NCBI GenBank assembly: GCA_963700155.1
Contig: OY969472.1
Span: forward strand, 176,271-240,270
DNA: 64,000 bases
Direction: 5' to 3'
Origin: an uncultured bacterium
GTDB lineage: Bacteria > Patescibacteriota > Dojkabacteria > J137
Shown in pieces: positions 31,760 to 44,218 of the stretch (its first letter is position 1; each line of letters begins with the position of its first letter). The translations under genes and the position numbers were made by a program. The notes under the pieces are model-generated. The model searched no databases and had not been told where the DNA came from. It was given only the letters and a program-made list of their open reading frames with translations.

Positions 31760-32335
31760 TTAAATTTGGAGAAAATCTATTCCACACTTATCTGCAGCAA
31801 CTCCATCATTTAATCTGCTGTCACCTATCATTAAATATTTTGATTTATCTTCATCTTCACGATAAAGATCTTTAAAGCCAACTGGATCTGGTTTTAAATA
31901 TTTAACACTATCTCTTGTTACAAGTTTTGAAAAAGCACTTCTTATATTTTGTTCACCTAAAATTTTGTCTACCGTAGTCAAAGTGTTTGAAGTCCAAAGG
32001 TAAAAAGTATATTTATCTTTATTCTTTCTAATAAAATCTATTATTTCTTTATTTGGAGTATACCCTTTAAGATTTTTTCTCTCGAAATCAATCCATAACT
32101 TTGCAATAATTACCCACGATGGCGGTCCAAACCTTTTTACAATCATATTAGCAACAACTGAGATATCATTAACCATTTTAACTTTTGAAGTGAAGCTTTT
32201 ATCTACATTCTTTTCGAAATATTTTAATTGTTCTGTTAACTTAGACCAAGGAAGTATTAAAGTTGCAATTGTATGATCAAAATCAAAGATTAAGAATTCT
32301 TTTGGATGATCTTCGAGGTATTTTTCAAGTTCCAT
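31760..32335 (-). CDS. HAD-superfamily hydrolase
   Basis: Motif I FDFDHTIA (DxDxT) near the N-terminus. Size is typical of small HAD phosphatases. Confidence 0.6.
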   Translation of the reverse strand: MELEKYLEDHPKEFLIFDFDHTIATLILPWSKLTEQLKYFEKNVDKSFTSKVKMVNDISVVANMIVKRFGPPSWVIIAKLWIDFERKNLKGYTPNKEIIDFIRKNKDKYTFYLWTSNTLTTVDKILGEQNIRSAFSKLVTRDSVKYLKPDPVGFKDLYREDEDKSKYLMIGDSRLNDGVAADKCGIDFLQI

Positions 32336-32428
32336 AAATAAATTATATCAGAAGTTTTATGAAAGTCTTGTGATTTCTATAATCTTTTTTATAAAAGGAA
32401 CATAGAGTATAATTCTACTGAAATTCAA

Positions 32429-32446
32429 GCAGACGTGGCGGAATTG
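32429..32446 (+). repeat. 18-nt duplicate of the 5' end of tRNA-Leu(GAG) (GCAGACGTGGCGGAATTG), 124 nt upstream of the intact gene
   Basis: Exact match to tRNA positions 1-18. The sequence diverges after that. Confidence 0.8.
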
Positions 32447-32552
32447 ATCATAAGGTCAATTGAGACAAATGTAATGTAGTCGAAATAAAGACCGCATGAA
32501 TCCCCTGAGGGGAGCATACTTGAGTAGCAGAAGTTTGGTAATATTGTTTTAT

Positions 32553-32636
32553 GCAGACGTGGCGGAATTGGCATACGCGCTACCTTGAGGTGGTAGTCCA
32601 AGCAATTGGGTGCAGGTTCAAGTCCTGTCGTCTGCA
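32553..32636 (+). tRNA. tRNA-Leu (anticodon GAG), type II, 84 nt
   Basis: GCAGACGTGGCGGAATTGGCATACGCGCTACCTTGAGGTGGTAGTCCAAGCAATTGGGTGCAGGTTCAAGTCCTGTCGTCTGCA. Anticodon loop TTGAGGT, long variable arm, T-loop GGTTCAAGTCC. Confidence 0.85.
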
Positions 32637-32697
32637 TTAGCTTACCAAAAAGAAATTATATATAACTCAAGTATTTTAGATGTTCTAATTTACAAAT

Positions 32698-33408
32698 ATG
32701 AAACTTTACAGAGGATTTATTGTTGATCATAATAAACCACAAAACGATCCATTCCGACAGGAATCTTCAATTAACATTGCGGAGGCTATACGGGTGCCAG
32801 AAAAATTTGATCCTCATTCTTCAAATAACTCAAATCAACTATTGTGGGCAACTCCAGAAGAAAACTATGCAAAAGGGGTAAATCTAGCGAGATTTCTAAG
32901 CAGGTATATTTTTAGTTCAGCTTTTCGCGAGAGTGTGGGCCAAGGCAAAGTACAGCTAGCAATAGCAGAATATAATGTAGAAGAGGGTAATGTTTATCTC
33001 GTAAATGAAGATGGAGTTCACAAGTATTCCCCAGATGGAGAACAATATTTAATTCAGAAAAGTAATGACAGACCTCAGATACGTACCATTAGTCAGGATT
33101 CATTTACAGAAATAGTAGGATTATTAGGTCGGAAAGGTATGCAGGATTATATAGCGAGAGCGGCGTATAGATTATCTCAGCTATATAAATTAAGTATTAA
33201 CTGGAATAAAGAAAGAATAGTTAATGAGATGACTTTTTATGAAGGTGTAAATTATATACTCTCAAAATACTTTCCCCAAGTACTCTTACAAGAAGAGCTG
33301 TTAGAAGAATTTGCAGAAGGATTATTTGGAACCAGTCTTCGATTCAATAGAATTGCGGAAAATTCAAATTATTCAAACTTATTTGAAGGGGAAATAGATC
33401 TAAGATAA
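32698..33408 (+). CDS. Hypothetical protein (first gene of the repeat-punctuated segment)
   Basis: ORF only, no motif recognised. Confidence 0.45.
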   Translation: MKLYRGFIVDHNKPQNDPFRQESSINIAEAIRVPEKFDPHSSNNSNQLLWATPEENYAKGVNLARFLSRYIFSSAFRESVGQGKVQLAIAEYNVEEGNVYLVNEDGVHKYSPDGEQYLIQKSNDRPQIRTISQDSFTEIVGLLGRKGMQDYIARAAYRLSQLYKLSINWNKERIVNEMTFYEGVNYILSKYFPQVLLQEELLEEFAEGLFGTSLRFNRIAENSNYSNLFEGEIDLR

Positions 33409-33545
33409 ACTCTAATTCAATTTAAGAGAATTGAGATCAAACTGTATTAATTAGTTCATATCCTATTGTTTATTTATAAATACTTGCAGTTTAGCTTCTA
33501 GTGATATTTCTTTCTTTGTATTCAATAAGTTGCTATGGCTAGGAA

Positions 33546-33626
33546 ATTCAAGAGATTCTATAATAGTAGCGAATTCTTGGAGTTCTTCTATGATTTGGGT
33601 TCGCTTTCGATCCTCTAAGTTGCATT
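33546..33626 (+). repeat. Segment repeat copy 1, short subtype (...GATTCTATAATAGTAGCGAATTCTTGGAGTTCTTCTATGATTTGGGTTCGCTTTCGATCCTCTAAGTTGCATT)
   Basis: Near-identical to copies at 36231 and 39204 and to the 3' half of copies 2 and 3. Confidence 0.85.
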
Positions 33627-33684
33627 GAGTTGTTTTATAAATCTTTTATTGATAGAATCCAGGAATAAATTTTAACATCATATT

Positions 33685-33978
33685 ATGAGTGATCAACTCT
33701 TTGTTCAAAGACAAAGTATCTTTAACGCTAAGATTACAACAGCTGAAAGCTTGCTTGAAGCACTCCGAGTAGATAAGCCATACTTACAAGCAGAAACTGC
33801 TGAAGTTACAATAGTAAAGTACGAAGAGGTAGAAGGTATCGATTATTTTACTATCTCTGCTAGTTATTTCGTTTCGAATTCTCCAACTAGTAATCCATAT
33901 AAAAAAACTGAATTAATTACGATTACAGTAGATAAAGGAGAAATTAGTAATTTTGGTTCTAGAGTTATAGAAGGATAG
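33685..33978 (+). CDS. Hypothetical small protein
   Basis: ORF only. Confidence 0.4.
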   Translation: MSDQLFVQRQSIFNAKITTAESLLEALRVDKPYLQAETAEVTIVKYEEVEGIDYFTISASYFVSNSPTSNPYKKTELITITVDKGEISNFGSRVIEG

Positions 33979-34010
33979 GTGTTTAAATTTTACTCTTCAA
34001 AATTAATATA

Positions 34011-34108
34011 TTCCATAATGGTACTGAAAACTTTGAATTCTTCTAATATTACTCGAACTGAGCTACTACTCAGTTCACCGGTTCGCTTTCGATCCTCTAA
34101 GTTGCATT
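34011..34108 (+). repeat. Segment repeat copy 2, long subtype with a 27-nt insertion carrying the GAACTGAGCTACTACTCAGTTC hairpin
   Basis: Shares ...TTCTTCTAATATTACTCGAACTGAGCTACTACTCAGTTCACCGGTTCGCTTTCGATCCTCTAAGTTGCATT with copy 3. Confidence 0.85.
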
Positions 34109-34129
34109 ATTTTATTATAAACTCCTGAT

Positions 34130-34753
34130 TTAAGACTCTCTTCTTGACCTACTTAAAATGGTATCTATTGCCTGTACAAGATCAGCTCTATAGGTTTTAT
34201 AATTCCTAATAAAACTCTCCTCAGAACTAATTATTTGAGCAAATCTGTCAGCCAATGATTTATAATGGCCTGTCAAAGGTAGCATTAAAGAATATTCCAT
34301 ACTTAACAAAGTATTAACTGCATCTATATTAAAAAAGGTTTCAAATAAATCCCCAATCATTTCCAAAGTATATTCATTACCTATATCAGGATCTGCATCT
34401 GGAATACCAGCAAGCACTGGAAGTGAACCGCCATTTCCCATATATTCTAAAATCAAAGCCGTTGATTCCTTAAGTATACCGAGTATTTGCTTTCCTACAT
34501 CTGATAGACCTTCTAGTGCAGTTAACATACTTAAATCCCCTGATATATTTCGCCTTGCTAAATACCTTATTACATCAAATGGGATTTTAGGTGAAGCATT
34601 TAAAACATCCGCGATCTTGAATATTATTCCATTAATTTGAATAGTTTCTCCTAATTCTTCTCTTGAAAGTATTTTTGATCCTATCTCATCTGTTATTTTT
34701 GATACAAACAACGCTGGATTAGATTGAACTCTTTCTAGTGCATTTACATCCAT
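34130..34753 (-). CDS. Hypothetical protein
   Basis: ORF only. Confidence 0.45.
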   Translation of the reverse strand: MDVNALERVQSNPALFVSKITDEIGSKILSREELGETIQINGIIFKIADVLNASPKIPFDVIRYLARRNISGDLSMLTALEGLSDVGKQILGILKESTALILEYMGNGGSLPVLAGIPDADPDIGNEYTLEMIGDLFETFFNIDAVNTLLSMEYSLMLPLTGHYKSLADRFAQIISSEESFIRNYKTYRADLVQAIDTILSRSRRES

Positions 34754-34830
34754 ATATTAGTATTAAAATATAATTGTACGGAATATATAATTTTAATATA
34801 GAAAAAGCAAGTTGAATTTAAATAGCCTCA

Positions 34831-34939
34831 CATTCAATGGATTCTATAATAGTACTAAATTCTTGGAGTTCTTCTAATATTATTCGAACTGAGCTACTAC
34901 TCAATTCACCGGTTCTCTTTCGATCCTCTAAGTTGCATT
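34831..34939 (+). repeat. Segment repeat copy 3, long subtype
   Basis: CAATGGATTCTATAATAGTACTAAATTCTTGGAGTTCTTCTAATATTATTCGAACTGAGCTACTACTCAATTCACCGGTTCTCTTTCGATCCTCTAAGTTGCATTGA. Confidence 0.85.
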
Positions 34940-34946
34940 GACTTAT

Positions 34947-35591
34947 TCAATAAGGATTTTTCTTCTTGTCTTTTATATATTTTTCGTAATACTTCTTAGA
35001 GTCAAGAGCTTCTGGTCCAGTTCCATTCTCGAAATATTCTAAGAGTTGATCTTCAATATAATCATTCTCATCTGAATAAGAGACATTCCAATCATCTATT
35101 GTAATCAAAATACCTAACAAAACCTTATCTTTGAAGTTATAATCATAATACGTTGCTTTAGGGAACTTATGCATAATCTCAAACACAACCTCATGTAAAA
35201 AATTTTCAGAGATCTCATCATCAAAATAAAGCTTTAATACTTTTTTTATTAAAATTTTTACATCATCTTCAGTTGGTTTAGTTTTAGGAAAATTCTCATT
35301 TCGTATATATTCTCCAACTGTTGATTCGAGTTTATCTTCATCATTAGAGGCTAGTGTTTGATAAAAATCTAAAATCCTACCTCTTACCTCGATAAATTCT
35401 GTTGTTGGCTGTCTTACACTCCAATTCAAAGCTAATTCCACCAATGCTCTCAAGTTAGAATCAGATTTATCAATTTTTTGACAGAGAGATCTAGCATTTT
35501 CTGCGAGCTGCTTTCGAGATATTTGACCATCGAAATAACGCTTTATTGCATTTTCGAAAATTTTTCGAGTATTTGAATCATTAATTTTCAT
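34947..35591 (-). CDS. Hypothetical protein
   Basis: ORF only. Helical and Lys/Glu/Asp-rich. Confidence 0.45.
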   Translation of the reverse strand: MKINDSNTRKIFENAIKRYFDGQISRKQLAENARSLCQKIDKSDSNLRALVELALNWSVRQPTTEFIEVRGRILDFYQTLASNDEDKLESTVGEYIRNENFPKTKPTEDDVKILIKKVLKLYFDDEISENFLHEVVFEIMHKFPKATYYDYNFKDKVLLGILITIDDWNVSYSDENDYIEDQLLEYFENGTGPEALDSKKYYEKYIKDKKKNPY

Positions 35592-35786
35592 AGTTTACTA
35601 ATTATAATAATTAAAATTTTATATAGATTTTACCCCTTAAAAATATTTAAACCAACTTTGTCTTTTGGTAAAGCTCGTCACTGCTGACGAGAGAATTGTA
35701 GTCTGTTTCCAGATCTACACTTCTACAAAGTTGGTTTAACTTTTAGCTTCAGATCTACAAATCAACGATTTTGATACTGTTATGGA

Positions 35787-36035
35787 TCAGCCACCGAACC
35801 AGGAGCCGAAGCCACCTTTTTTTTCCTTCTTGCCCTTGCGGTCTTTGACAACACCCGTCTCGATGGTCAGTTTGCGCCCGTTGTCGTGATCGGTCTGGTG
35901 ATCCCCTGTCTTCGATCCATCAGGGTGGCGATCATGAGACCGGTGTAAACCGGGCTGGTGTTTTACCGTGTGAACATACGGTTTTCCATTCTTATCTTTC
36001 TTGTTCTCATTTTTCGTTGTATGTTTCCTAACCAC
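35787..36035 (-). CDS. GC-rich small His/Lys/Gly/Asp-rich hydrophilic protein (disordered, possibly stress- or metal-related)
   Basis: GTG start 5 nt after a strong AGGAGGTG SD. No hydrophobic core. About 50% GC against roughly 30% flanks. The 5'UTR has a GTGTCCGAAAAGGAACAC hairpin. Confidence 0.45.
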   Translation of the reverse strand: MVRKHTTKNENKKDKNGKPYVHTVKHQPGLHRSHDRHPDGSKTGDHQTDHDNGRKLTIETGVVKDRKGKKEKKGGFGSWFGG

Positions 36036-36230
36036 TTTACACCTCCTAAGGGTGTTCCTTTTCGGACACTTAATGTGTCATGAGTAATAATATTATCACT
36101 CAATCTATATATAATGTCAATATACTAGAGACGTTTGTAGAGCTCATCTACTAATATTTATCTAAAACTTTGATGAAATAAATCTTTATCTGCGGTAACT
36201 TCAACTGTTCGGATAGCTTCCGCATTGTCT

Positions 36231-36316
36231 TCAAACTCAATGGATTCTATAATAGTGCTGAACACTTGGAGCTCTTCGATGATTTGGGTTCGCTTTCGAT
36301 CCTCTAAGTTGCATTT
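36231..36316 (+). repeat. Segment repeat copy 4, short subtype
   Basis: CAATGGATTCTATAATAGTGCTGAACACTTGGAGCTCTTCGATGATTTGGGTTCGCTTTCGATCCTCTAAGTTGCATT. Confidence 0.85.
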
Positions 36317-36367
36317 GAATTTAGCTTTCACAACATTTATACTAAGGATAATAAAGTTAATTATCCT

Positions 36368-36976
36368 ATGAATAATATTGATTTACCCAATGCACTTCCA
36401 CAAGACATCATCGCAAAAGAAAAGCTTATAGAATTAGTTAGAGAAAAGTTAATACCAAAACTTGATTTATATAGAGATAGATTTTCTGACTTTCCAGAAC
36501 TACAGAAAAAGGTTTCAGACGAAACTATTGAAATCATGGTAGAAAGTTTTGCTGAATGTTTCTTACTACTTAATTTAACGCAGGAACATATTCCTGATTT
36601 TTTTGTATTTGATGAGAAGTTTAGAGAAGAAATAAGTATGATAACAAATACCGTATGGATTCTAAATAGTGAAGATGGACCTGTTTTTAATATAAACTAT
36701 GATCGTCTTTATGAAATATCACAAAGAATTTCAGAAAAAAATTCAAAATTAAATTTAATGGAAAAAGATCATTTACGACAAATGATTGCCCATGAAGTAC
36801 ACCATATTTATGATATATATTTTGATCCTGAAAGAGCAAAAATTTCAGGAATAGCAAATGCAAGAAGTGACTTAGCTTTCTTAGACCCAGGAGAAAATGC
36901 TGCTCAACAATTTGGTTTTAGATATCGTGATCTAAAAAAAGATGAAGATGACTTAAAAGTTAATAATAAAAACTGA
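36368..36976 (+). CDS. Hypothetical protein with an HExxH motif (possible zincin-like metallopeptidase)
   Basis: MIAHEVHHIYD contains HEVHH. No other support. Confidence 0.4.
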   Translation: MNNIDLPNALPQDIIAKEKLIELVREKLIPKLDLYRDRFSDFPELQKKVSDETIEIMVESFAECFLLLNLTQEHIPDFFVFDEKFREEISMITNTVWILNSEDGPVFNINYDRLYEISQRISEKNSKLNLMEKDHLRQMIAHEVHHIYDIYFDPERAKISGIANARSDLAFLDPGENAAQQFGFRYRDLKKDEDDLKVNNKN

Positions 36977-37142
36977 ACAAAATCGTTCTACCTCTACTTT
37001 CTATCATAATGACATCTAATCTAATCTTAATTTACCTCAATACTTACTTTTAACTTGGTTTTGGAAATTACAATATAGGAACTGTACTTGAACCATTAAT
37101 TATTTTCAGATGTTCAGAAAAGAAAAAATAAATTAAAATAGT

Positions 37143-37994
37143 ATGATGATTATTAAGACATACATTCCAAGCTCACCTTTAAATACATTTATAAAAGTTA
37201 TGTGGATTTCCGAAGGGGTAGCACAAACAAAAAGGATTAAGATTCTCCCCGACACATCACTTCATCTAATGATCAATTTAGGTGAGCCTTATAGAATATA
37301 CAAAACAGATACCGTGGAATGTATTACAACATGTAAAGAAAGTTGGTGCGTAGGAATATGGAAGAATTCCCACTTAATGGATTACCCCACTAAAATGCAT
37401 ATCTTAAATATTACGTTTTTACCTGGTGGAGCATTTCCATTTATTGGTTATCCAGCGATTGAGGTGGAAAACAATATTGTTCCACTAGAGGCAATTTGGG
37501 GATCTAAAGCTTTGGAGTTACGAGAGAAACTTTATTATGCACGTTCTGCAGATGAACGATTTAAAATTCTTGAAGTAAGTTTATTTCAAAGATTGAAAAA
37601 TACTGAAATATCAAAAGAACTTATTATGATCCAAGATGTTATTCGTCAAATTTCAGTTAATAATGGAGTTTTATCTATCTCTTCATTAAGTGAACTTTAC
37701 AATATTAGTCAAAAACACTTGATACATTTGTTCCTTAAGTTTGTGGGGGCTACTCCAAAAGAAGTTGCCAAGATATTTCGATTTAACTTTATACTTTCGC
37801 AAATAAATTCTAATTCCGACATAAACTGGACAAATATTTCTCAAGATTCCGGATACTATGATCAGTCTCATTTTAATAAGGACTTTAAATCATTCACTCA
37901 GATGACACCAAGTGAATATTTGAAGGAAACAATATTGGCAAATGGGAGGGTTCCGGAGTTGTCCTCTTCCCCAAATAATTTAGCAACTGGTTAA
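37143..37994 (+). CDS. AraC-family transcriptional regulator
   Basis: The C-terminal dual HTH (ISQKHLIHLFLKFVGATPKEVAKIFRFNFILSQI ... SGYYDQSHFNKDFKSFTQMTPSEYL) is diagnostic of AraC/XylS. Confidence 0.8.
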   Translation: MMIIKTYIPSSPLNTFIKVMWISEGVAQTKRIKILPDTSLHLMINLGEPYRIYKTDTVECITTCKESWCVGIWKNSHLMDYPTKMHILNITFLPGGAFPFIGYPAIEVENNIVPLEAIWGSKALELREKLYYARSADERFKILEVSLFQRLKNTEISKELIMIQDVIRQISVNNGVLSISSLSELYNISQKHLIHLFLKFVGATPKEVAKIFRFNFILSQINSNSDINWTNISQDSGYYDQSHFNKDFKSFTQMTPSEYLKETILANGRVPELSSSPNNLATG

Positions 37995-38022
37995 ATTTTT
38001 ACAAGCATTACCTCTATCATGG

Positions 38023-38517
38023 ATGTATTATTATAAAATATTAGGAGGTAATATGAAGAAATCAAATACATCTACAAATCAAGAAATTATAACAGTCAAG
38101 ACAATAAATGCATCCCCTGAACGCATTTGGAAAGCTTGGACAAATTCTGATGAAGTACGTACGTGGTGGGGTCCTGCTGGATTTTCAACTGAAACTCAAT
38201 TAATGGATGTGAAGCCGGGTGGAAACTGGGTATATATTATGCACGGACCAGACGGGAAAGACTATGCTAATGCTTTAGTTTATGATGAAGTTCAAGAACC
38301 AAATCGTTTAGTCTATACACATAAAGCAAGCCCTGAATTCAATTTAGACGGCTGGAAAATGATAAATACTTTTGAAGATATTGGAGGGAAAACAAAAGTA
38401 ACCATGCACGCTATTTATGCCTCTCCAGAGGAATACAATAAACATATCACTTTTTTTAATGCTGTTAAGGGAGCAAAAGAAATGCTTCAGCGGCTAGAAA
38501 AGTTTGTCAAGGAATAA
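38023..38517 (+). CDS. SRPBCC-superfamily protein, AHSA1/Aha1-like
   Basis: PERIWKAWTNSDEVRTWWGP and overall length are typical of the AHSA1 domain family. Confidence 0.65.
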   Translation: MYYYKILGGNMKKSNTSTNQEIITVKTINASPERIWKAWTNSDEVRTWWGPAGFSTETQLMDVKPGGNWVYIMHGPDGKDYANALVYDEVQEPNRLVYTHKASPEFNLDGWKMINTFEDIGGKTKVTMHAIYASPEEYNKHITFFNAVKGAKEMLQRLEKFVKE

Positions 38518-38543
38518 TTTAAGTTAATTTTTAAAAAGAAATT

Positions 38544-39149
38544 ATGAGAAAAATAATAGTCACAACAATGATAACAATCGATGGAGTGATGCAAGCTCCT
38601 GGAGGATCTAAAGAAGATACTGCTGAGGGCTTTTCATTTGGTGGGTGGACCGGACCTTACAACGACAAATTTACAGAAAAAATGTTTACAAGAGACATGT
38701 CAGGAAAATTTGATCTTTTGTTAGGGCGAAAAACCTATGAAATTTTCAAAGGATACTGGCCGGAGCATGCCTATGCTTGGCCTCGAATCAATGAAGTAAT
38801 GAAATATGTAGTGTCACGGAATTCTTCACTTAAAACAGATTGGAATAACTCTGTGCTTATTGGTATAGATATAGTCAAAGAAATAAAAAAACTTAAACGA
38901 GGTAACGGGCTTGATATTGAGATTTGGGGAAGCAGTAATCTAATCCAGACACTATTAAAAAATGATTTAGTAGATGAAATTTGGCTTAAAATATATCCTA
39001 TAACTTTAGGCACTGGGAAAAAGCTATTTTCTGAGGGGACAATCCCAGTTGCTTTCAAGCTAGAAGAGTGCAAAATTTCACCAAAAGGAGTCATTTTTGC
39101 TAATTATAAGAAAACCGGAAAAGTTAAAACAAGCGAGGTTAAAGACTAA
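38544..39149 (+). CDS. Dihydrofolate reductase-like (RibD C-terminal domain / YwjB family) protein
   Basis: MRKIIVTTMITIDGVMQAPGG ... YPITLGTGKKLF matches the DHFR-like RibD_C fold pattern. Confidence 0.65.
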   Translation: MRKIIVTTMITIDGVMQAPGGSKEDTAEGFSFGGWTGPYNDKFTEKMFTRDMSGKFDLLLGRKTYEIFKGYWPEHAYAWPRINEVMKYVVSRNSSLKTDWNNSVLIGIDIVKEIKKLKRGNGLDIEIWGSSNLIQTLLKNDLVDEIWLKIYPITLGTGKKLFSEGTIPVAFKLEECKISPKGVIFANYKKTGKVKTSEVKD

Positions 39150-39203
39150 GACGTGAGCATTAGTTATCGATAATCTTTTCACAGCTTAAGCATTAGAGTT
39201 TTT

Positions 39204-39243
39204 TCAATGATTTAGGTTCGCTTGCAGTCTTCTAAACTGCAAT
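39204..39243 (+). repeat. Segment repeat copy 5, degenerate 3' part of the short subtype
   Basis: TCAATGATTTAGGTTCGCTTGCAGTCTTCTAAACTGCAATG matches the consensus GATGATTTGGGTTCGCTTTCGATCCTCTAAGTTGCATTG. Confidence 0.6.
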
Positions 39244-39247
39244 GAAA

Positions 39248-39682
39248 TTACACATTAGTGATTTTTTCTCCTAATTCCTTTGCTCTCCATTGTAAATCTA
39301 TTAACACTCTAAACCTAGCATTCTTGGTTACATCAGTTTGTTTCAATAATTTTAATATCAACTCTGTTTCAAAATTCTTCATTCCTGTTGAATTTATAAG
39401 AAAATCAAGCATTACACAATTATTTGTACCAATGTCTTCCATCAATTGATTTGATACATTGCAAGTTGTAACTAAAAAAGTTCTCACTCCATTTAATTGA
39501 AAATACCCCTCATAAATCTTAATTAAATTATCTATACCTTCTTTAAGTATTAATACTGTAATATCCTGAGGATATTTTTCCAATAATTCTTTGATAGCAT
39601 TCTGACAAATAATTACATCACTAGTAGGTTCTTTATCCATAATATATAAATATGAGTTAATTTTCTGGATTATACATAACAA
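39248..39682 (-). CDS. Hypothetical protein (likely starts at the internal Met, MDKEPTSD, at 39640)
   Basis: ORF only. Confidence 0.4.
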   Translation of the reverse strand: MLCIIQKINSYLYIMDKEPTSDVIICQNAIKELLEKYPQDITVLILKEGIDNLIKIYEGYFQLNGVRTFLVTTCNVSNQLMEDIGTNNCVMLDFLINSTGMKNFETELILKLLKQTDVTKNARFRVLIDLQWRAKELGEKITNV

Positions 39683-39714
39683 TTCATGAATTTATCAAGT
39701 TGTGTTGGTTGTTA

Positions 39715-39756
39715 GGCGCGGCGTTAAATGCCGCGCCATCTCAACCTTGCTAATTA
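39715..39756. repeat. Cassette-1 3' element: GGCGCGGCG-TTAAA-TGCCGCGCC hairpin plus terminal IR AACCTTGCTAATTA
   Basis: Nearly identical elements at 40943-40980 and 41751-41782. The 14-bp IR partner TAATTAGCAAGGTT is at 40798-40811. Confidence 0.85.
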
Positions 39757-40635
39757 TCAATTAGTCCGACGCCTGATCATCTCCAGTACTTGTTGGGCTT
39801 GATATGTAGAACAGGATGGGGTAAGCCCCCATACATGAGTATTGTCGTCTGTCAGGTATATAGGTTCACGGGTAAGCCAGGCGTTCGAATATAAGCCATT
39901 TCGCACTACAATCATCCACTCTCCTTCTGTTGGAAGAAGTTGTTTCGACATTAGCCCATCGGTGTCAAAGAGTGGAGTCCAGTATCCGCCTGGACCATTC
40001 TTAATCTGACCTGCGACTTCACCATTGATCTTATAAATGACTTCTCCGAAGTCGCAGAACGGGACATCCTCACCAGGGCTTGGTGCCACATAGTCGGACG
40101 TCTTGTCGAAATCCACCCACACTGACGCTTCAGAGCCATCAATTCCGACCCGGACAGCGTTACCCTCGCAGGATTGCACTGTGGTGTCGTAACCAATGAC
40201 CGAGATCCCCGCTTCAAGCTGAAGCTGGGAGTCAAGATAAATCTCGACGCTCGGCGGAACGCGAATCGGATTATCGATAGCGCAATGCCTTACTGTCTCC
40301 TGCACTCCGCCAAGTTGATCAGTGTAGCTGGAGGTTTCATCGAAATCCGCCAAGTCTACCCACACACCAGCATCCACACTAGCTACTGATCTATCGTGGA
40401 AAATGACAAGAGCTGCATTTCCCTGGCATGCTCTAACTTCACCATCGAAGCCAGCGATCAAGGATCCAGCACTAACTTGAAGCTGAGAGTCAAGGTAAAG
40501 TGCAGTACCTGCTGGAACATGAATCGAGGGGAGTCCTGTGACACAGTAACGCTGATGAACATCCTGCCCAAGAGCAGGCTGAATCAGTCCGATAGTGAGC
40601 AATACGCCCACGAATATTACCACTAATTTCTTCAT
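39757..40635 (-). CDS. Secreted protein, paralogue 1 of a three-member family (two internal about 70-aa repeats plus a shared C-terminal domain). GC-rich.
   Basis: Signal peptide MKKLVVIFVGVLLTIGLIQPALGQ. Internal duplication YCVTGLPSIHVPAGTALYLDSQLQ... and HCAIDNPIRVPPSVEIYLDSQLQ.... C-terminus GEWMIVVRNG...HVWGLTPSC...VLEMI is shared with paralogues 2 and 3. Confidence 0.7.
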   Translation of the reverse strand: MKKLVVIFVGVLLTIGLIQPALGQDVHQRYCVTGLPSIHVPAGTALYLDSQLQVSAGSLIAGFDGEVRACQGNAALVIFHDRSVASVDAGVWVDLADFDETSSYTDQLGGVQETVRHCAIDNPIRVPPSVEIYLDSQLQLEAGISVIGYDTTVQSCEGNAVRVGIDGSEASVWVDFDKTSDYVAPSPGEDVPFCDFGEVIYKINGEVAGQIKNGPGGYWTPLFDTDGLMSKQLLPTEGEWMIVVRNGLYSNAWLTREPIYLTDDNTHVWGLTPSCSTYQAQQVLEMIRRRTN

Positions 40636-40724
40636 TTCCGGTCTCCAGTATATTATGATTTTGCAGCTACGCTTATAAAGGACGCTACTTACCCTCAGTC
40701 TTTAAAGTTCGAGCTCGTTCAGCT

Positions 40725-40782
40725 TTAAAGATGCGCAAACTAACCTCATTTTATTTTTAAAGTCAGTTTGCGCATCTTAAAG
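40725..40782. promoter_or_regulatory. Large palindromic operator-like element upstream of paralogue 1 (TTTAAAGATGCGCAAACTAAC ... GTCAGTTTGCGCATCTTAAAG)
   Basis: A roughly 21-bp inverted repeat around a 16-nt AT spacer. It is related to the elements upstream of paralogues 2 and 3. Confidence 0.55.
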
Positions 40783-40942
40783 TACAAACTCAAGCAATAA
40801 TTAGCAAGGTTGTTAATGAACTGTAAAACTAACAAATGATTAGAATTTACAAGGGGATTATATCATGGTGATATACTTATGTCACATTAAAGTATCATAG
40901 GTACTTATTTAGGAAGGAATTAAGGAAGTTAGATTAGGTTCA

Positions 40943-40980
40943 GGCGCGGCGTTAAACGCCGCGCCTTCTCAACCTTGCTA
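40943..40980. repeat. Cassette-2 3' element: GGCGCGGCGTTAAACGCCGCGCC hairpin plus AACCTTGCTA
   Basis: A perfect 9-bp GC stem with a 5-nt loop. The IR partner AGCAAGGTT is at 41554-41562. Confidence 0.85.
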
Positions 40981-40981
40981 G

Positions 40982-41389
40982 CTATCCTAGGAAAATCCCG
41001 ATGAGATGAAGTAACCAAACGAGAAACTCGAGCTGCGGTTTTACGCACCCAATTGAATAGGTCCAAACCCTTGAGCCAGGTTTGACACTATCATATGGGG
41101 TTGCTGATACTTCGGCAGTGCTGAACAGTATTCGATCATTATGCAATCTTGCTACGATTAACCACTGCCCCGAAGGATTTACAAATATTGCTCCTCCGTT
41201 ATCAGTACTTAGCGAATCGAAGTACCATCCATTACTCATTGGTACCTGACGAAGCCCTTTTATTAGAATGCACTCAGTCACTCCAAGTGACATCCCCGAG
41301 CTGGAGCTATCGGCGAGAGCTGGGATAATTTGCAGTCCCAGCAATCCAATGAGCAATATGCTCACTAAGAATAATGGAATTCTATTCAT
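40982..41389 (-). CDS. Secreted protein, paralogue 2 (135 aa), GC-rich
   Basis: Signal peptide MNRIPLFLVSILLIGLLGLQIIPALA. GQWLIVARLHND...RVWTYSIGC...LEFLV aligns with the shared C-terminal domain. Confidence 0.65.
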   Translation of the reverse strand: MNRIPLFLVSILLIGLLGLQIIPALADSSSSGMSLGVTECILIKGLRQVPMSNGWYFDSLSTDNGGAIFVNPSGQWLIVARLHNDRILFSTAEVSATPYDSVKPGSRVWTYSIGCVKPQLEFLVWLLHLIGIFLG

Positions 41390-41476
41390 TCTACCTCCAT
41401 TACAAGCTACTGCAGCTTCGCTAACTCAAGGATGCTGCTACCCTTATCATCAAGTACTGAGCTCATTCGGACTCGA

Positions 41477-41524
41477 TGACGCGCAAAGTAACTTAAAATT
41501 TAATTATCGTCACTTTGCGCGTCA
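41477..41524. promoter_or_regulatory. Palindromic operator-like element upstream of paralogue 2 (TGACGCGCAAAGTAAC-N16-GTCACTTTGCGCGTCA)
   Basis: A 16-bp IR with one mismatch. Near-identical copy at 42479-42526. Confidence 0.6.
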
Positions 41525-41553
41525 CCAATCTTAAAATTTTCAAGGATATTATC

Positions 41554-41650
41554 AGCAAGGTTATCAGTAATCTTTCATAGCTTTCGCATATGATTTTGAT
41601 TACTAACAACATTAATCCCATAAGTGGGATTGCTGTTATTAATGTGCTTA
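41554..41650. repeat. Conserved about 100-nt AT-rich structured block (AGCAAGGTTATCAGTAATCTTTCATAGCTTTCGCATATGATTTTGATTACTAACAACATTAATCCCATAAGTGGGATTGCTG...)
   Basis: Repeated at 42555-42660 with a few substitutions. Contains AGTAATC/GATTACT and AATCCCA/TGGGATT hairpins. Confidence 0.8.
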
Positions 41651-41750
41651 TAATACTATTATACACTAAGAGATTATTTTATATAATATAAGAAGTATAT
41701 AAGGATTTTAAAGATATCTATATTTATTTGAAAGTTATCAGGCGCGGCGT

Positions 41751-41782
41751 TAAACGCCGCGCCTACATCGATAACCTTGCTA
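41751..41782. repeat. Cassette-3 3' element: GGCGCGGCGTTAAACGCCGCGCC hairpin plus AACCTTGCTA (overlaps the stop codon)
   Basis: As for cassettes 1 and 2. The IR partner CATAGT..TAGCAAGGTTAT is at 42543-42566. Confidence 0.85.
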
Positions 41783-42406
41783 ACTATGCATAATCTCCAA
41801 GATGTGATCAAGATCCCCCTGATCACACCCATTGTTCAGCGCCCAGACGTGGGCGCCGAAAATCGAGCTGACGAACGTGTAATTGACAAACCGAGCGGTC
41901 TGCCAGAGATCGTTGCCTTCAGGTCCTTTGTCCACTACTAAGAGCAGTTGCCCGTAATAGTGGAGATCAGTCGAGGGATGAACAAAGACGATTCCTCCTT
42001 GATTAGTCTCACGACCGGCATGATAATCTCCGTCACCGATGGCGTCGCCGCCAAAAACCTTCTGAATACGGCAGATCGGGCGAGTAACTTGCGGTCCATC
42101 AGGCATAATTGAGCCTTCAAAGATGGAATTCCTTATATCATCAACCGCAACCCATAACCGATGATCGGAGCCGTGAATACTGATCTCTGCTGAATCGATG
42201 TCATCTGCGCAAGTATTCACAACAGCACCAAATCCTTCCGTTGTCAGACCATATTGTTCGGTCCGACCCGCGTCATTGAATAGCCAGGTGCCTGGCTGGA
42301 CAATTACGTAGCCATTCGTACATGCCACATTTTCTTGCCCGATGGCTGGCGTAACCAGCATGGCTGAAAGGACAATGAACACAATGAACAGAACTAGCTT
42401 CTTCAT
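41780..42406 (-). CDS. Secreted protein, paralogue 3 (208 aa), GC-rich
   Basis: Signal peptide MKKLVLFIVFIVLSAMLVTPAIGQ. The C-terminus GQLLLVVDKG...HVWALNNGC...ILEIM aligns with paralogues 1 and 2. Confidence 0.7.
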   Translation of the reverse strand: MKKLVLFIVFIVLSAMLVTPAIGQENVACTNGYVIVQPGTWLFNDAGRTEQYGLTTEGFGAVVNTCADDIDSAEISIHGSDHRLWVAVDDIRNSIFEGSIMPDGPQVTRPICRIQKVFGGDAIGDGDYHAGRETNQGGIVFVHPSTDLHYYGQLLLVVDKGPEGNDLWQTARFVNYTFVSSIFGAHVWALNNGCDQGDLDHILEIMHS

Positions 42407-42478
42407 TTTCTTATCTCCGTTTTGAACTCTTTCTCTCGAAGTATGCTTATCATCTTCCCGAATGATTCCTGGGTTTAA

Positions 42479-42526
42479 TGACGCGCAAAGTAACTTAAAA
42501 TTTAATTATTGTCACTTTGCGCGTCA
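42479..42526. promoter_or_regulatory. Palindromic operator-like element upstream of paralogue 3
   Basis: TGACGCGCAAAGTAACTTAAAATTTAATTATTGTCACTTTGCGCGTCA. Confidence 0.6.
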
Positions 42527-42554
42527 CTAACTTTCAGTTCTAACATAGTTATAT

Positions 42555-42660
42555 TAGCAAGGTTATCAGTAATCCTTTCATAGCTTTCACATATGATTTT
42601 GATTACTAACAACATTAATCCCATAAAAGGAATTGCTGTTGTTAATGTTCTAAGTAAACT
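42555..42660. repeat. Second copy of the conserved about 100-nt block, beginning with TAGCAAGGTT
   Basis: See 41554-41650. Confidence 0.8.
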
Positions 42661-42774
42661 CATAAATGAATCTACTCGATTGAATTATATCATCGGTATA
42701 TATTTCTTATCAAACTTTTATTTATGAATAAGTTAACTTTAAAATTTCTTTTTCAAAAGCTATACTATTGATAT

Positions 42775-43245
42775 ATGGAAATAAAAATAAGTAAAAATAA
42801 AATAAGTTTATTTTTCAAAATATTAATAACATCAATAATTTTATTAGCTGTACTTGCTTTCTTTCTACCATTTATAGAAAAAGACGCTTCGAGTTTTGAT
42901 AATAGCAATGTTAACTCAAATGGGTATATTGATAACTTGGGATATGTTAATTATTCTCCAGCCATAAAGAGCTTTTCAAATAAAAAGAATGTTTTATTCT
43001 TTAAAGCAAATTGGTGTTCCACTTGTACAACGGCTGATCTGAACTTTCAGAAAGAACTTCAAAATAAAAGTATTCCAAACTACTTAACTATTTATAAAGT
43101 AGATTTTGAAAAAGATGTTGCCTTAAAACAGAAATACGGAGTAACTCTTCAACATACTTTTGTTCAGGTAGATAATAACGGAAATGAACTAAAAAAATGG
43201 ATCGGAAGTTATACTATTGATGAAGTTCTTAAAGAAATCGTTTAA
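42775..43245 (+). CDS. Thioredoxin-fold protein with an N-terminal TM anchor (CxxC)
   Basis: TM ILITSIILLAVLAFFLPF. FFKANWCSTCTTAD is a thioredoxin-like CxxC active site. Confidence 0.55.
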   Translation: MEIKISKNKISLFFKILITSIILLAVLAFFLPFIEKDASSFDNSNVNSNGYIDNLGYVNYSPAIKSFSNKKNVLFFKANWCSTCTTADLNFQKELQNKSIPNYLTIYKVDFEKDVALKQKYGVTLQHTFVQVDNNGNELKKWIGSYTIDEVLKEIV

Positions 43246-43786: not shown

Positions 43787-44218
43787 TTATTTCTTTGTTG
43801 TAGTTTTCTTAGTTGCAGTTTTTTTTGCAGCTGACTTTGTTACCTGTTTTTTTACTGTCGAAGTTTTTTTAATTATTGGTTTCGTATCAACTTTAGTTGA
43901 TGGCATTACATCTATTTCTGTAGGCTTAACTTCTCCACCTTGAACAACAGCTGAAGCACTCTCAACAACATCAACATATTTTTGATGTCTTTTATATCCT
44001 GTCATTCTTCTGAATGCAACGAAGCCTAGTTTTGTTGCATAAAGTGTGAAATCTCTTCCTTGTTTAACATTTACACCTGGATAAAATTCAGAACCTCTTT
44101 GTCTGACAATAATTTCTCCTGGATTAACTTTTTCTCCACCAAATTTTTTAATGCCTAGTCTTTTTCCTATGACATCAACTGTTCTTTTTGCTGAACCGGT
44201 GGCGGCTGAATGTGCCAT
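43787..44218 (-). CDS. rpmA: 50S ribosomal protein L27 with a Lys/Thr-rich C-terminal extension
   Basis: RLGIKKFGGEKVNPGEIIVRQRGSEFYPGVNVKQGRDFTLYA is the conserved L27 core. Confidence 0.9.
   Translation of the reverse strand: MAHSAATGSAKRTVDVIGKRLGIKKFGGEKVNPGEIIVRQRGSEFYPGVNVKQGRDFTLYATKLGFVAFRRMTGYKRHQKYVDVVESASAVVQGGEVKPTEIDVMPSTKVDTKPIIKKTSTVKKQVTKSAAKKTATKKTTTKK

What the first reader, a model, noticed from the sequence alone, without database searches (positions are those of the whole stretch)
39713..42660. GC-rich tandem trio of IR-bounded secreted-protein cassettes
Three consecutive minus-strand genes encode signal-peptide proteins that share only a C-terminal domain (G.W.IV.R......VW....C.....LE.I). 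Each gene unit has the same non-coding architecture. The stop codon is followed by a 9-bp GC stem hairpin (GGCGCGGCGTTAAACGCCGCGCC) and AACCTTGCTA. The matching inverse copy, TAGCAAGGTT, lies about 1 kb away on the other side of the gene's upstream region, with 9- to 18-bp perfect arms. A large palindromic GCGCAAA-type operator sits in front of each gene. The coding parts look close to 50% GC, against roughly 30% around them. Flanking signals that are nearly identical around strongly diverged genes look like a mobile or recombining cassette, perhaps a MITE-like passenger element or an invertible or cassette-exchange locus. They do not look like ordinary paralogues. No recombinase is present in the window.
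Basis: seen in the sequence. Interest (0 to 1): 0.8.

Follow-up and report, generated by a model that had tools for sequence, protein, structure and literature searches.

The report
Foreign secreted-protein genes with end-pairing mRNAs
Three tandem, horizontally acquired genes for secreted proteins of unknown function sit in a small AT-rich bacterial genome, and each is bracketed by matching sequences that most likely make its messenger RNA pair end to end; they could instead be sites for DNA inversion or cassette exchange.

Summary
Three minus-strand ORFs (A 39757-40635, B 40982-41389, C 41780-42406) have third-codon-position GC content (GC3) of 0.43-0.51, against 0.14-0.29 for the other window ORFs measured. 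They are orphans in about 15 billion proteins. Each carries the same non-coding kit: a promoter, a 5' arm AACCTTGCT, a 15-25 bp 5'UTR hairpin, the ORF, a 3' arm AGCAAGGTT at the stop codon, and a GC hairpin without a U tract.

The three are true but distant paralogues. Whole units are homologous, and synonymous sites are saturated while the flanks keep 88-100% identical blocks.

Promoter-like sites lie outside the 5' arm (strong for A and C, weak for B), so both arms would be transcribed. In full-length folds the 5'-3' helix forms with probability 0.7-1.0. It extends with unit-specific complementarity into each ORF's last codons. Non-Watson-Crick pairs are mostly G·U on the mRNA strand.

My best reading (confidence about 0.4) is an acquired paralogue array with end-pairing mRNAs, serving as a stability or processing module.

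It is not an integron, MITE or REP by the features tested. No recombinase, target-site duplication or second copy was found. However, the six core sites alternate in orientation and also bracket two promoter-bearing spacers. A shufflon, inverton or novel cassette system is therefore not excluded.

The parts
42684..42713 (-). Promoter-like site of unit C (TTGATA-18-TATAAT with TG); predicted transcription start near 42677
   Evidence: 11 of 12 matches plus TG. It lies upstream of the 5' arm, so the arm would be transcribed.
42598..42653 (-). Leader hairpin of unit C (AU-rich, about 17 bp with an internal loop); part of the 86-nt block shared with unit B
   Evidence: (repeat D1, inverted repeat I10). 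Differences from B give G·U or C-G pairs on the minus strand.
42554..42567 (-). 5' arm of unit C (mRNA GAUAACCUUGCUAA). A further 7 nt, AACUAUG at 42543-42549 (after a 5-nt bulge), pairs with the last codons of ORF C.
   Evidence: (I16, 14 bp at 100%).
42475..42530 (-). 5'UTR hairpin of unit C (20-bp stem, 16-nt loop)
   Evidence: I9; z = -6.4.
41780..42406 (-). ORF C, 208 aa: signal peptide, N-terminal domain and C-terminal domain; GC3 0.51
   Evidence: It is an orphan.
41770..41783 (-). 3' arm of unit C (mRNA UUAGCAAGGUUAUC); its UAG is the stop codon of ORF C
   Evidence: I16; pair probabilities 0.87-1.0.
41731..41764 (-). GC hairpin of unit C (41740-41764) plus the short downstream AACC-type copy GAUAACUUU (41731-41739), which can pair locally with the 3' arm
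   Evidence: -29.5 kcal/mol, no U tract.
41658..41712 (-). Promoter region of unit B. Only weak matches (TTTAAA-16/18-TATATT/TATTAT at 41712-41683), plus a TATAAT read by eye at about 41658-41663.
   Evidence: This region aligns with the promoter of unit C.
41595..41641 (-). Leader hairpin of unit B
   Evidence: (D1, I2).
41526..41565 (-). 5' arm of unit B: core AACCUUGCU (41554-41562) plus a unit-specific stretch (41526-41553) with 7+6 bp complementary to the last codons of ORF B
   Evidence: p = 0.006 against shuffles; core pair probabilities 0.71-1.0.
41477..41524 (-). 5'UTR hairpin of unit B
   Evidence: I14; z = -6.5.
40982..41389 (-). ORF B, 135 aa: signal peptide and C-terminal domain only; GC3 0.43
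40971..41000 (-). 3' arm of unit B: core AGCAAGGUU (40971-40979) plus the end of ORF B that pairs with the leader
40936..40966 (-). GC hairpin of unit B (40942-40966) plus the downstream AACCU copy (40936-40940)
   Evidence: -27.4 kcal/mol, no U tract.
40857..40885 (-). Promoter-like site of unit A (GTGACA-17-TATAAT with TG); predicted transcription start near 40850
   Evidence: 11 of 12 matches plus TG.
40795..40812 (-). 5' arm of unit A (mRNA CAACCUUGCUAAUUAUUG)
   Evidence: I13, 16 bp at 100%; probability about 1.0.
40722..40784 (-). 5'UTR hairpin of unit A (about 25 bp, with a 9-nt apical loop in the predicted fold). Two stem positions differ from B and C, and both are compensated.
   Evidence: I7; z = -7.3.
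39757..40635 (-). ORF A, 292 aa: signal peptide, two copies of the N-terminal domain and the C-terminal domain; GC3 0.47
39742..39759 (-). 3' arm of unit A (mRNA UGAUAAUUAGCAAGGUUG); it begins with the stop codon UGA
39707..39737 (-). GC hairpin of unit A (39715-39737) plus the downstream CAACC copy (39707-39711). The promoter of the next gene starts 9 nt further on.
   Evidence: -25.3 kcal/mol, no U tract.

Best explanation
A three-gene family for secreted proteins was acquired from a GC-richer donor and expanded by tandem duplication of a whole expression unit.

Each unit is transcribed from its own promoter into an mRNA that carries a built-in structural kit:
- a structured 5' leader;
- a 15-25 bp 5'UTR hairpin;
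- a very stable GC hairpin at the 3' end, without a U tract;
- a long-range helix of 18-23 bp between a leader segment about 160-177 nt upstream of the start codon and the sequence at and around the stop codon.

This helix closes the mRNA into a panhandle.

**Shown by computation**
- Both arms lie downstream of promoter-like sites.
- The helix dominates the thermodynamic ensemble.
- The helix extension differs between units and matches within each unit.

**Inferred**
- The duplex, together with the terminal hairpins, protects both mRNA ends or serves as a double-strand-specific processing site. Such a site would cut each ORF out of read-through transcripts of the array, as the flanking stems of rRNA operons do.
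- Because the stop codon lies inside the duplex, terminating ribosomes would open it.
- The near-identity of some blocks between B and C, and between A and B, reflects sequence constraint plus occasional gene conversion between units.
For: - **Promoter placement.** Sigma-70-like sites with 11 of 12 matches plus TG lie outside the 5' arms of A and C. A weaker homologous one lies upstream of B.
- **Folding.** The long-range helix appears in the minimum-energy and centroid structures of the full-length A and C transcripts. Its core pairs have ensemble probability 0.71-1.0 in all three units.
- **Specificity.** Among 60 ORFs in the window, only these three have such 5'/3' complementarity.
- **Unit-specific extension.** The helix extends beyond the shared 9-nt core into each ORF's own last codons. 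In A it is 18 contiguous bp including two G·U pairs. In B it is 7+6 bp (p = 0.006). In C it is 7 bp (p = 0.07). My own Fisher combination of the three shuffle p-values is about 0.005.
- **Divergent island.** This extension lies in a 28-nt stretch that I count as 43% identical between B and C, between blocks of 88-96% identity.
- **5'UTR hairpin.** All 15 core pairs are paired in all three units. Both stem differences between A and B/C are compensated on both sides. One conserved G·U is on the mRNA strand.
- **Strand bias.** By my reading of the sequences, about 5-6 non-Watson-Crick pairs in the helices are G·U on the minus (mRNA) strand, against one A·C.
- **3' hairpins.** They are the most stable 3' structures among 50 genes and lack U tracts. 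Host genes such as thrS have canonical terminators.
- **No recombination machinery.** No recombinase, target-site duplication or extra copy was found.
- **Precedent.** End-to-end pairing that controls an mRNA is known in type I toxin mRNAs (PMC6733600).
Against: - Only three sequences from one genome are available, so covariation statistics are weak. For the palindrome, 58 of 500 shuffles reach the observed score.
- Promoters and transcript ends are predictions only.
- An RNA helix does not need its 9-nt core to be identical in all six arms while synonymous sites are saturated. Such strict conservation fits a protein recognition site at least as well.
- The RNA model does not itself explain the GC3 shift, or why the composition boundary roughly coincides with the arms.
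- The same sites also form 11-12 bp perfect inverted repeats around the two promoter-bearing spacers (my reading of the arm sequences). That arrangement is the classic layout of invertible promoters.
- Minimum-energy folds of 1-kb RNAs ignore co-transcriptional folding and ribosomes.
Confidence: 0.4

Rival explanations
1. The sites form a DNA inversion system of the shufflon or inverton type. The six AACCTTGCT/AGCAAGGTT sites alternate in orientation along the array. They would be recombination sites for an invertase encoded elsewhere in the 1.14-Mb genome. Inverting a gene segment (promoter outside) or a spacer segment (promoter inside) would switch each secreted protein ON or OFF independently. 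The palindromic GC hairpins would insulate the units in either orientation.
For: - The core is 100% identical in all six arms, although synonymous sites are saturated.
- Site orientation alternates strictly.
- The 3' arm of C and the 5' arm of B form a 12-bp perfect IR around a 228-bp spacer that holds promoter B. The 3' arm of B and the 5' arm of A form an 11-bp IR around a 179-bp spacer that holds promoter A. These pairings are my reading of the arm sequences.
- The promoters lie outside the gene-flanking IRs.
- The products are secreted proteins of a small-genome, probably host-attached bacterium, a typical substrate for phase variation.
Against: - No recombinase was found in about 47 ORFs of the 64-kb window. 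Most such systems encode it nearby.
- All three genes are in the ON orientation, and each has its own promoter.
- The sites have no consistent internal dyad symmetry, by inspection of the sequences.
- Unit B's own IR is only 9 bp.
- A recombinase does not need the unit-specific, bulged extension of the helix into coding sequence.
- The bias towards G·U on the mRNA strand is unexplained by this model.
Confidence: 0.17
2. The units are mobile gene cassettes with a folded, attC-like recombination site. In a circular form, each cassette would carry one imperfect palindrome: 3' arm, 4-9 nt, GC hairpin, 1-3 nt, full 5' arm. For unit A this is about 62 nt with a 16-bp outer stem. Integration by crossover in the AACC core would split it. 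The full 5' arm would end up at one cassette end and a short AACC remnant at the other, which is what is seen. An unknown recombinase would act in trans.
For: - The topology (X' - ORF - X - hairpin - X') is the same as in integron cassettes.
- The short copy after each hairpin is a unit-specific direct repeat of the outer part of the 5' arm: TAACAACC in A and CTGATAAC.TT in C. It extends 2-3 nt beyond what pairing requires (my comparison of the sequences).
- Foreign GC3 is confined to the segment between the repeats, while the spacers are host-like at 0.23-0.28 GC.
- The ORFs end exactly at the arm.
- The locus borders a variable region.
Against: - The canonical attC boxes are absent. The order here is GGTT...AACC, not RYYYAAC...GTTRRRY.
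- The inner stem is perfect, with no extrahelical bases.
- The cassettes are separated by 130-210-nt spacers with promoters instead of abutting.
- There is no integrase in the window.
- The core repeat differs between units, which a single recombinase would not tolerate easily.
- The three ORFs are paralogues and whole units align, so duplication explains the array without insertion.
- The exact hairpin pattern gave no IR-bearing match in 596 Gb of genomes or the JGI metagenomes. BLASTN against the plasmid and phage collections found nothing.
Confidence: 0.13
3. These are ordinary diverged paralogues whose conserved flanks are just a terminator-like hairpin, a regulator-binding palindrome and promoter elements. 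On this reading the 5'/3' inverted repeat has no function of its own. It would be a relic of how the unit was first duplicated or inserted.
For: - Whole-unit homology and significant protein similarity.
- An AraC-family regulator is encoded 2 kb away.
- A second small family with conserved intergenic modules lies 4-6 kb away. Repeated flanks are therefore not unique to the trio in this region.
Against: - A functionless repeat should have decayed like the synonymous sites, which show third-position identity of 0.24-0.33. Instead, the arms are perfect over 14-16 bp and are re-matched unit by unit.
- The palindrome lies about 100 nt inside the transcript and has 16-20 bp arms with a 16-17 nt loop. 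Its changes are compensated, which is unlike known operators.
- The hairpins lack the U tract that host terminators have.
Confidence: 0.12

Closest known systems
5'-3' long-distance interaction in type I toxin mRNAs (hok, aapA1/aapA3)
   Same: The two ends of a full-length mRNA pair with each other and lock it in a defined, stable fold. The pairing is conserved among paralogous copies (PMC6733600).
   Different: In those systems the ORFs encode toxins of 30-50 aa, the interaction hides the ribosome-binding site, and an antisense RNA is part of the system. Here the ORFs encode 135-292-aa secreted proteins. The 5' arm lies about 100 nt upstream of the ribosome-binding site. The 3' arm covers the stop codon. 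No antisense RNA is evident.
RNase III processing stems that flank rRNAs in rRNA operons, and phage T7 early mRNAs (from general knowledge)
   Same: Sequences on both sides of a gene-sized segment pair over about 20 bp, so that each unit of a longer transcript is bracketed by a duplex.
   Different: No cleavage has been shown here, the segments are protein-coding, and RNase III could not be looked for outside the window.
Integron gene cassettes and attC sites, including integrase-less clusters (CALINs) (from general knowledge)
   Same: Both have same-orientation arrays of about 1-kb single-gene units of foreign composition. Both have near-identical imperfect-palindrome elements at the 3' ends of unrelated or diverged ORFs. 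Both share the X' - ORF - X - hairpin - X' topology.
   Different: Here there are no RYYYAAC/GTTRRRY boxes, no extrahelical bases and no integrase. Each unit has its own promoter and is separated from the next by a spacer. The ORFs are paralogues.
Invertible promoters and shufflons (fim switch, Bacteroides invertons, R64 shufflon, Mycoplasma vsp/vsa loci) (from general knowledge)
   Same: Short identical sites in alternating orientation bracket promoters and genes for surface or secreted proteins. The 5' regions are conserved in front of divergent coding regions.
   Different: No recombinase is nearby. Every gene has a promoter and all are in the same orientation. No alternative orientation has been observed. 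The arm extensions are bulged and unit-specific.
REP/BIME elements and Neisseria Correia repeats (from general knowledge)
   Same: These are GC-rich or IR-bounded intergenic elements at gene ends. They are transcribed, can stabilise mRNA or be cut by RNase III, and can carry promoters.
   Different: Those occur in tens to hundreds of copies around unrelated genes. Here there are three copies in 64 kb, all within the trio, and no match elsewhere.

Membership tests
Integron cassette / attC (CALIN) | attC with R'' RYYYAAC and R' GTTRRRY boxes (5'-AAC...GTT-3' order) closing an imperfect hairpin with extrahelical bases | tested here: not met
   The outer stem reads 5'-(A)GGTT...AACC(T)-3' on either strand. 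The inner 9-11 bp stem is perfect. Only unit A contains GCCTAAC/GTTAGGC, which I take to be chance.
Integron cassette / attC (CALIN) | Cassettes abut one another and are mostly promoterless | tested here: not met
   Spacers of 131-210 nt with promoter-like sites lie upstream of each unit, two of them between units.
Integron cassette / attC (CALIN) | IntI integrase and attI next to the array (not required for a CALIN) | tested here: not met
   No recombinase domain was found in about 47 ORFs of the window. The rest of the genome could not be searched.
MITE or other TIR transposon with passenger | Terminal inverted repeats flanked by a target-site duplication | tested here: not met
   Inverted repeats are present, but the bases outside them are not duplicated. 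The only direct repeat overlaps the IR and the foot of the hairpin.
MITE or other TIR transposon with passenger | Several dispersed copies, and a cognate transposase somewhere | tested here: inconclusive
   There is no copy outside 39.7-42.7 kb in the window. Scans of genomes and metagenomes for the exact hairpin pattern found no match carrying the IR. The other 1.08 Mb of the source genome was not available.
Inverton / shufflon | Identical short sites in inverted orientation that bracket a promoter or gene segment | tested here: met
   Six sites alternate in orientation. The gene-flanking IRs are 16, 9 and 14 bp. By my reading of the arm sequences, the IRs around the spacers holding promoters B and A are 12 and 11 bp.
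Inverton / shufflon | Both orientations present in the population; a site-specific invertase | not testable with these tools
   No reads are available. No invertase is in the window.
REP / BIME | High copy number at the 3' ends of many unrelated genes | tested here: not met
   There are three copies in 64 kb, all in the trio, and none of the 47 other 3' regions inspected has one. A genome-wide count was not possible.
Intrinsic (Rho-independent) terminator | GC-rich hairpin directly followed by a U tract | tested here: not met
   The hairpins are present, but the tails are UAACAACC, UGAACCUA and UGAUAACU. The scan reports none at these sites. Host genes such as thrS do have hairpin plus U tract.
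mRNA locked by 5'-3' long-distance pairing (type I toxin type) | Stable pairing of the 5' and 3' ends of the full-length transcript | tested here: met
   This was tested in silico only. The pairing is present in the minimum-energy and centroid folds of A and C, and pair probabilities are 0.71-1.0 in all three units.
mRNA locked by 5'-3' long-distance pairing (type I toxin type) | Small toxin ORF, sequestration of the ribosome-binding site by the 3' end, cis-antisense RNA | tested here: not met
   The ORFs are 135-292 aa with signal peptides. The 5' arm lies 161-177 nt upstream of the start codon, not at the ribosome-binding site. An antisense RNA was not tested.
RNase III processing stem | About 20 bp or more of duplex formed by the flanks of the processed segment | tested here: met
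   Unit A has 18 contiguous bp, unit B about 23 bp with loops, and unit C 14+7 bp. The 5'UTR hairpins have 20-25 bp.
RNase III processing stem | Cleavage by RNase III | not testable with these tools
   This needs an experiment. The rnc gene could not be sought outside the window.

The most novel reading that the evidence does not exclude
The six alternating AACCTTGCT sites and their adjoining GC hairpins are the DNA sites of a so far undescribed recombination system in a candidate-phyla-radiation bacterium. The system could be a gene-and-promoter shufflon or an integron-like cassette platform with a non-canonical folded site. It would capture, reshuffle or phase-vary foreign secreted-protein genes through a recombinase encoded elsewhere in the genome.
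Probability: 0.2. Interest if true: 0.8.

Novelty: new variant of a known kind. Interest (0 to 1): 0.55.

Why it matters
If the RNA reading holds, these would be full-size bacterial mRNAs for secreted proteins that close end to end. Each helix is re-matched gene by gene. So far this design is documented mainly for tiny toxin mRNAs and for rRNA precursors.

It would also show that a foreign gene can travel and duplicate together with a self-contained RNA stability or processing kit in a genome of only 1.1 Mb.

If the DNA reading holds, it would be a new recombination platform, of inversion or cassette type, in the candidate phyla radiation. Mobile-element biology and phase variation are almost unexplored in that group.

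Either way, the locus gives a concrete and cheap test: look at the reads and transcripts from the source sample. It also marks three orphan secreted proteins as likely interaction factors.

Tried and rejected
1. **Rfam.** The gathering-threshold search of the whole window and the permissive E-value search of 39600-42800 found no family for any element.
2. **Canonical attC.** Rejected on box sequence and order, and on the presence of spacers and promoters.
3. **TIR plus target-site duplication.** No duplication is present.
4. **REP-like ubiquity.** The hairpin pattern gave 2 hits in 596 Gb of genomes and 48 in the metagenomes. All but one are in DNA of 44-71% GC and many look like ordinary terminators. 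None has the IR nearby. The looser pattern of IR plus half hairpin in viral contigs gave only chance hits. The 5'UTR palindrome gave none there.
5. **BLASTN of the 3-kb locus** against plasmids and phages found nothing.
6. **Protein function.**
   - Pfam, NCBIfam and PHROGs gave no hits.
   - The word-based search with protein C and the HMMER profile search of 1.84 billion representatives found only the three proteins, plus one spurious repeat protein.
   - Viral contigs gave none.
   - The AlphaFold model from three sequences was poor (pLDDT 45; only the C-terminal roughly 60-100 residues reached 50-85). Foldseek against PDB gave nothing with E below 0.1. The afdb50 library was unavailable.
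7. **Finding the source contig.** Two exact-protein look-ups failed. Genome-wide counts and a recombinase search could therefore not be done.
8. **Small hydrophobic ORFs in the B and C leaders** (57 and 53 aa). I judge them non-coding because their frames diverge right after the shared nucleotide block, they have no ribosome-binding site, and the B/C differences are non-synonymous.
9. **Empty-site test.** The nearest relatives (65-66% identity in the YbaK-like protein) keep synteny only up to the thioredoxin gene and then differ completely. No clean empty site could be defined.
10. **GC elevation as an amino-acid effect.** Rejected for the trio (GC3 is high). It is true for two other GC-elevated genes.

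Full report
**1. What is there**

The window has 31.8% GC. It carries housekeeping genes of a small-genome bacterium:
- ksgA, murJ, pnp, cca, def, znuABC, thrS, rplU, rpmA and another class II aminoacyl-tRNA synthetase;
- a 2192-aa protein with no recognised domain;
- many ORFs without any Pfam family.

The source is a 1,140,724-bp contig. Named relatives of the YbaK-like protein include Candidatus Dojkabacteria and Parcubacteria. The organism is therefore most likely a member of the candidate phyla radiation.

Between 39.7 and 42.7 kb lie three minus-strand ORFs:

| ORF | Coordinates | Length |
|---|---|---|
| A | 39757-40635 | 292 aa |
| B | 40982-41389 | 135 aa |
| C | 41780-42406 | 208 aa |

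All three have Sec-type signal peptides and good Shine-Dalgarno sequences.

**2.

- The GC hairpin occurs three times, only here, with none expected by chance.
- The core AACCTTGCT/AGCAAGGTT occurs six times without mismatch, only here, in strictly alternating orientation.
- The gene-flanking inverted repeats are 16, 9 and 14 bp perfect.
- Among 60 ORFs of the window, no other gene has more than 11 nt of complementarity between its 300-nt upstream region and its 3' end. Those matches are AT-only.
- The 5'UTR palindromes fold with z-scores of -6.4 to -7.3.

The composition shift is real and lies at synonymous sites. GC3 is 0.47/0.43/0.51, against 0.15-0.29 for the other window ORFs of at least 150 aa (most 0.15-0.25). 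Two other GC-elevated genes (7883-9370 and 12081-18659) have GC3 of 0.14, so their GC comes from amino-acid content. The spacers between units have 0.23-0.28 GC, like the host.

**3. The units are paralogues**

- BLASTP gives A-C E=6e-7 (signal peptide plus N-terminal domain) and 5e-5 (rest), B-C 8e-8 and A-B 0.004.
- A carries the N-terminal domain twice (43% identity, E=4e-18).
- The upstream regions also align end to end: promoter -10 region, leader, 5' arm, palindrome, proximal UTR and ribosome-binding site.

What is unusual is the contrast in divergence:
- third codon positions are 24-33% identical, which is saturated;
- the flanks are 53-72% identical overall;
- some blocks reach 88-100%: the hairpin, both arm cores, and the palindrome and an 86-nt leader block between B and C.

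B is a mosaic. Its 3' module and proximal UTR resemble A. Its distal leader and palindrome resemble C.

**4. The proteins are orphans**

- A word-based search of 5.8 billion clusters with protein C found only itself.
- A HMMER profile search of 1.84 billion representatives found only the three proteins and one spurious repeat protein.
- Pfam, NCBIfam, PHROGs, viral contigs and a fold search gave nothing.
- The profile search also implies that no detectable fourth family member is present among the proteins in that collection, which includes these three from this contig.

**5. Where the elements sit relative to transcription**

Strong promoter-like sites on the minus strand (11 of 12 matches plus TG) lie at 42713-42684 and 40885-40857, outside the 5' arms of C and A. 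A weaker homologous one precedes B. Both arms, the palindrome and the GC hairpin are therefore predicted to lie on the same mRNA.

- **Full-length folds.** The 5' arm pairs with the 3' arm in the minimum-energy and centroid structures of A and C. Core pair probabilities are 0.71-1.0 in all three units.
- **Stop codon.** The 3' arm begins at or contains the stop codon in all three units.
- **Extension beyond the core.** The helix continues with unit-specific complementarity into each ORF's last codons:

| Unit | Extension | Shuffle p |
|---|---|---|
| A | 18 contiguous bp, two of them G·U | 0.24 |
| B | 7+6 bp | 0.006 |
| C | 7 bp after a 5-nt bulge | 0.07 |

  My own Fisher combination of these p-values is about 0.005.
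- **Divergent island.** In B and C this extension lies in a 28-nt stretch that I count as 43% identical, between blocks of 88-96% identity. The leader has therefore been matched to its own gene.
- **5'UTR hairpin.** All 15 core pairs are paired in all units. The only two stem differences are compensated on both sides. A conserved G·U lies on the mRNA strand.
- **3' hairpins.** At -25 to -30 kcal/mol they are the most stable 3' structures among 50 genes. They lack the U tract that host terminators such as that of thrS have.

**6. Most likely mechanism**

I read these facts as a transcript-embedded structural kit:
- a panhandle mRNA closed by an 18-23 bp leader/stop-codon duplex;
- an internal 20-25 bp 5'UTR hairpin;
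- a terminal GC hairpin.

The positions, the thermodynamics and the matched differences are shown by computation. The function is inferred. It could be protection of both ends. It could also be double-strand-specific processing that releases each ORF from read-through transcripts of the array, since the 3' hairpins are poor terminators. Terminating ribosomes would open the duplex.

The closest precedents are:
- the 5'-3' long-distance interaction of type I toxin mRNAs (PMC6733600);
- the processing stems that flank rRNAs (general knowledge).

The foreign GC3 needs a separate explanation. If the copies had diverged in this AT-rich genome, GC3 should have decayed. The array was therefore probably acquired as a block, already duplicated and diverged. 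It lies at the edge of a region (about 31.7-42.7 kb) that is not syntenic with the nearest relatives. Those relatives keep thrS-L21-L27-YbaK-(DsbD)-thioredoxin and then differ.

**7. Rivals**

The DNA readings are not excluded.

*(a) Inversion or shufflon.*
- The core is identical in all six arms, and the sites alternate in orientation.
- By my reading of the arm sequences, the 3' arm of C matches the 5' arm of B over 12 bp, and the 3' arm of B matches the 5' arm of A over 11 bp.
- The 228- and 179-bp spacers that hold promoters B and A are therefore themselves IR-bounded, like classic invertible promoters.

*(b) A cassette with a folded site.*
- Joining the ends of unit A would recreate a palindrome of about 62 nt (16-bp outer stem, bulges, 9-bp inner stem).
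- The short AACC copy after each hairpin is a unit-specific direct repeat of the outer part of the 5' arm.
- The composition boundary roughly follows these repeats.

*Against both:*
- there is no recombinase in the window;
- there is no target-site duplication and no canonical attC boxes;
- the cassettes are separated by promoter-bearing spacers;
- the exact hairpin scans of public genomes and metagenomes, and BLASTN against plasmids and phages, found no other copy;
- the helix extensions are bulged and unit-specific, and non-Watson-Crick pairs favour the mRNA strand.

*(c) A functionless relic* is unlikely, because the arms are perfect while neutral sites are saturated.

**8. Limits**

- There are three units in one genome.
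- Promoters and transcript ends are predicted, not measured.
- Genome-wide copy number, the presence of recombinases or RNase III, and alternative DNA arrangements therefore remain untested.

**9. Verdict**

- The finding is real and statistically solid.
- The "mobile cassette, not paralogues" interpretation is only partly right.
- The best-supported explanation is a horizontally acquired paralogue array whose mRNAs pair end to end (confidence about 0.4).
- A novel recombination system remains a live alternative (about 0.3 for the two DNA readings together).
- It is a new variant of known kinds rather than a member of any tested family. It deserves moderate to fairly high interest.

Noticed in passing
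window 35787-36035 (-), with flanks 35640-36140: This is a second gene with foreign-looking composition: an 82-aa ORF with a GTG start after AGGAGG, GC 0.50 and GC3 0.57. I read a strong TTGACA-17-TGATAATAT promoter-like site just upstream. Downstream, a 13-bp core stem (AAACCAACTTTGT/ACAAAGTTGGTTT; reported as 20-nt arms, 90% complementary) encloses a second hairpin, CTCGTCA-ctgc-TGACGAG. No family matched.
   Followed up: partly
window 33544-33626, 33997-34116, 34828-34947, 36233-36315: An AT-rich, host-like repeated module of 83-120 nt has four copies, 60-88% identical. It lies next to ORFs of about 200 aa with no family hit (34130-34753, 34947-35591, 36368-36976). A motif from it, ATGCAACTTAGAGGATCGAAAG.GAACC, follows two of the stop codons. 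This is another small family with conserved flanks in the same variable region.
   Followed up: partly
window about 31700-42700: This stretch is not syntenic with the two nearest relatives found (65-66% identity in the YbaK-like protein). Those relatives keep thrS-L21-L27-YbaK-DsbD-thioredoxin and then carry MIP and DUF2200 genes. The window lacks the DsbD gene between YbaK and thioredoxin. A tRNA-Leu (32552-32637) lies near the far edge of the variable stretch.
   Followed up: partly
window 41493-41666 (-) and 42502-42663 (-): Small hydrophobic ORFs of 57 and 53 aa overlap the conserved B and C leaders. They share TAIP[LF]MGLMLLVIKIICESYER. Their frames diverge after the shared nucleotide block and no ribosome-binding site is seen, so they are probably not coding.
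   Followed up: partly
window 7883-9370 (-): A 495-aa protein rich in Cys, Gly, Ser and Thr has hydrophobic segments at both ends and no Pfam family. Its GC of 0.40 comes from codon position 2 (0.65), while GC3 is host-like at 0.14.
   Followed up: no
window 12081-18659 (-): A giant 2192-aa ORF has no Pfam domain and host-like GC3 of 0.14.
   Followed up: no
window 24851-24999 (-): A cobalamin riboswitch (43 bits) lies directly upstream of a 616-aa ORF (22960-24810) that has no Pfam family.
   Followed up: no
window 43787-44218 (-): Ribosomal protein L27 carries a Lys/Thr-rich C-terminal extension of roughly 50 residues. The L27 of the relative in L172 is only 115 aa, against 143 aa here.
   Followed up: no
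window 37143-39149 (+): Three genes (AraC-family regulator, AHSA1/SRPBCC protein, RibD_C-domain protein) next to the trio have slightly raised GC3 of 0.27-0.29. They may belong to the same acquired or variable stretch.
   Followed up: no
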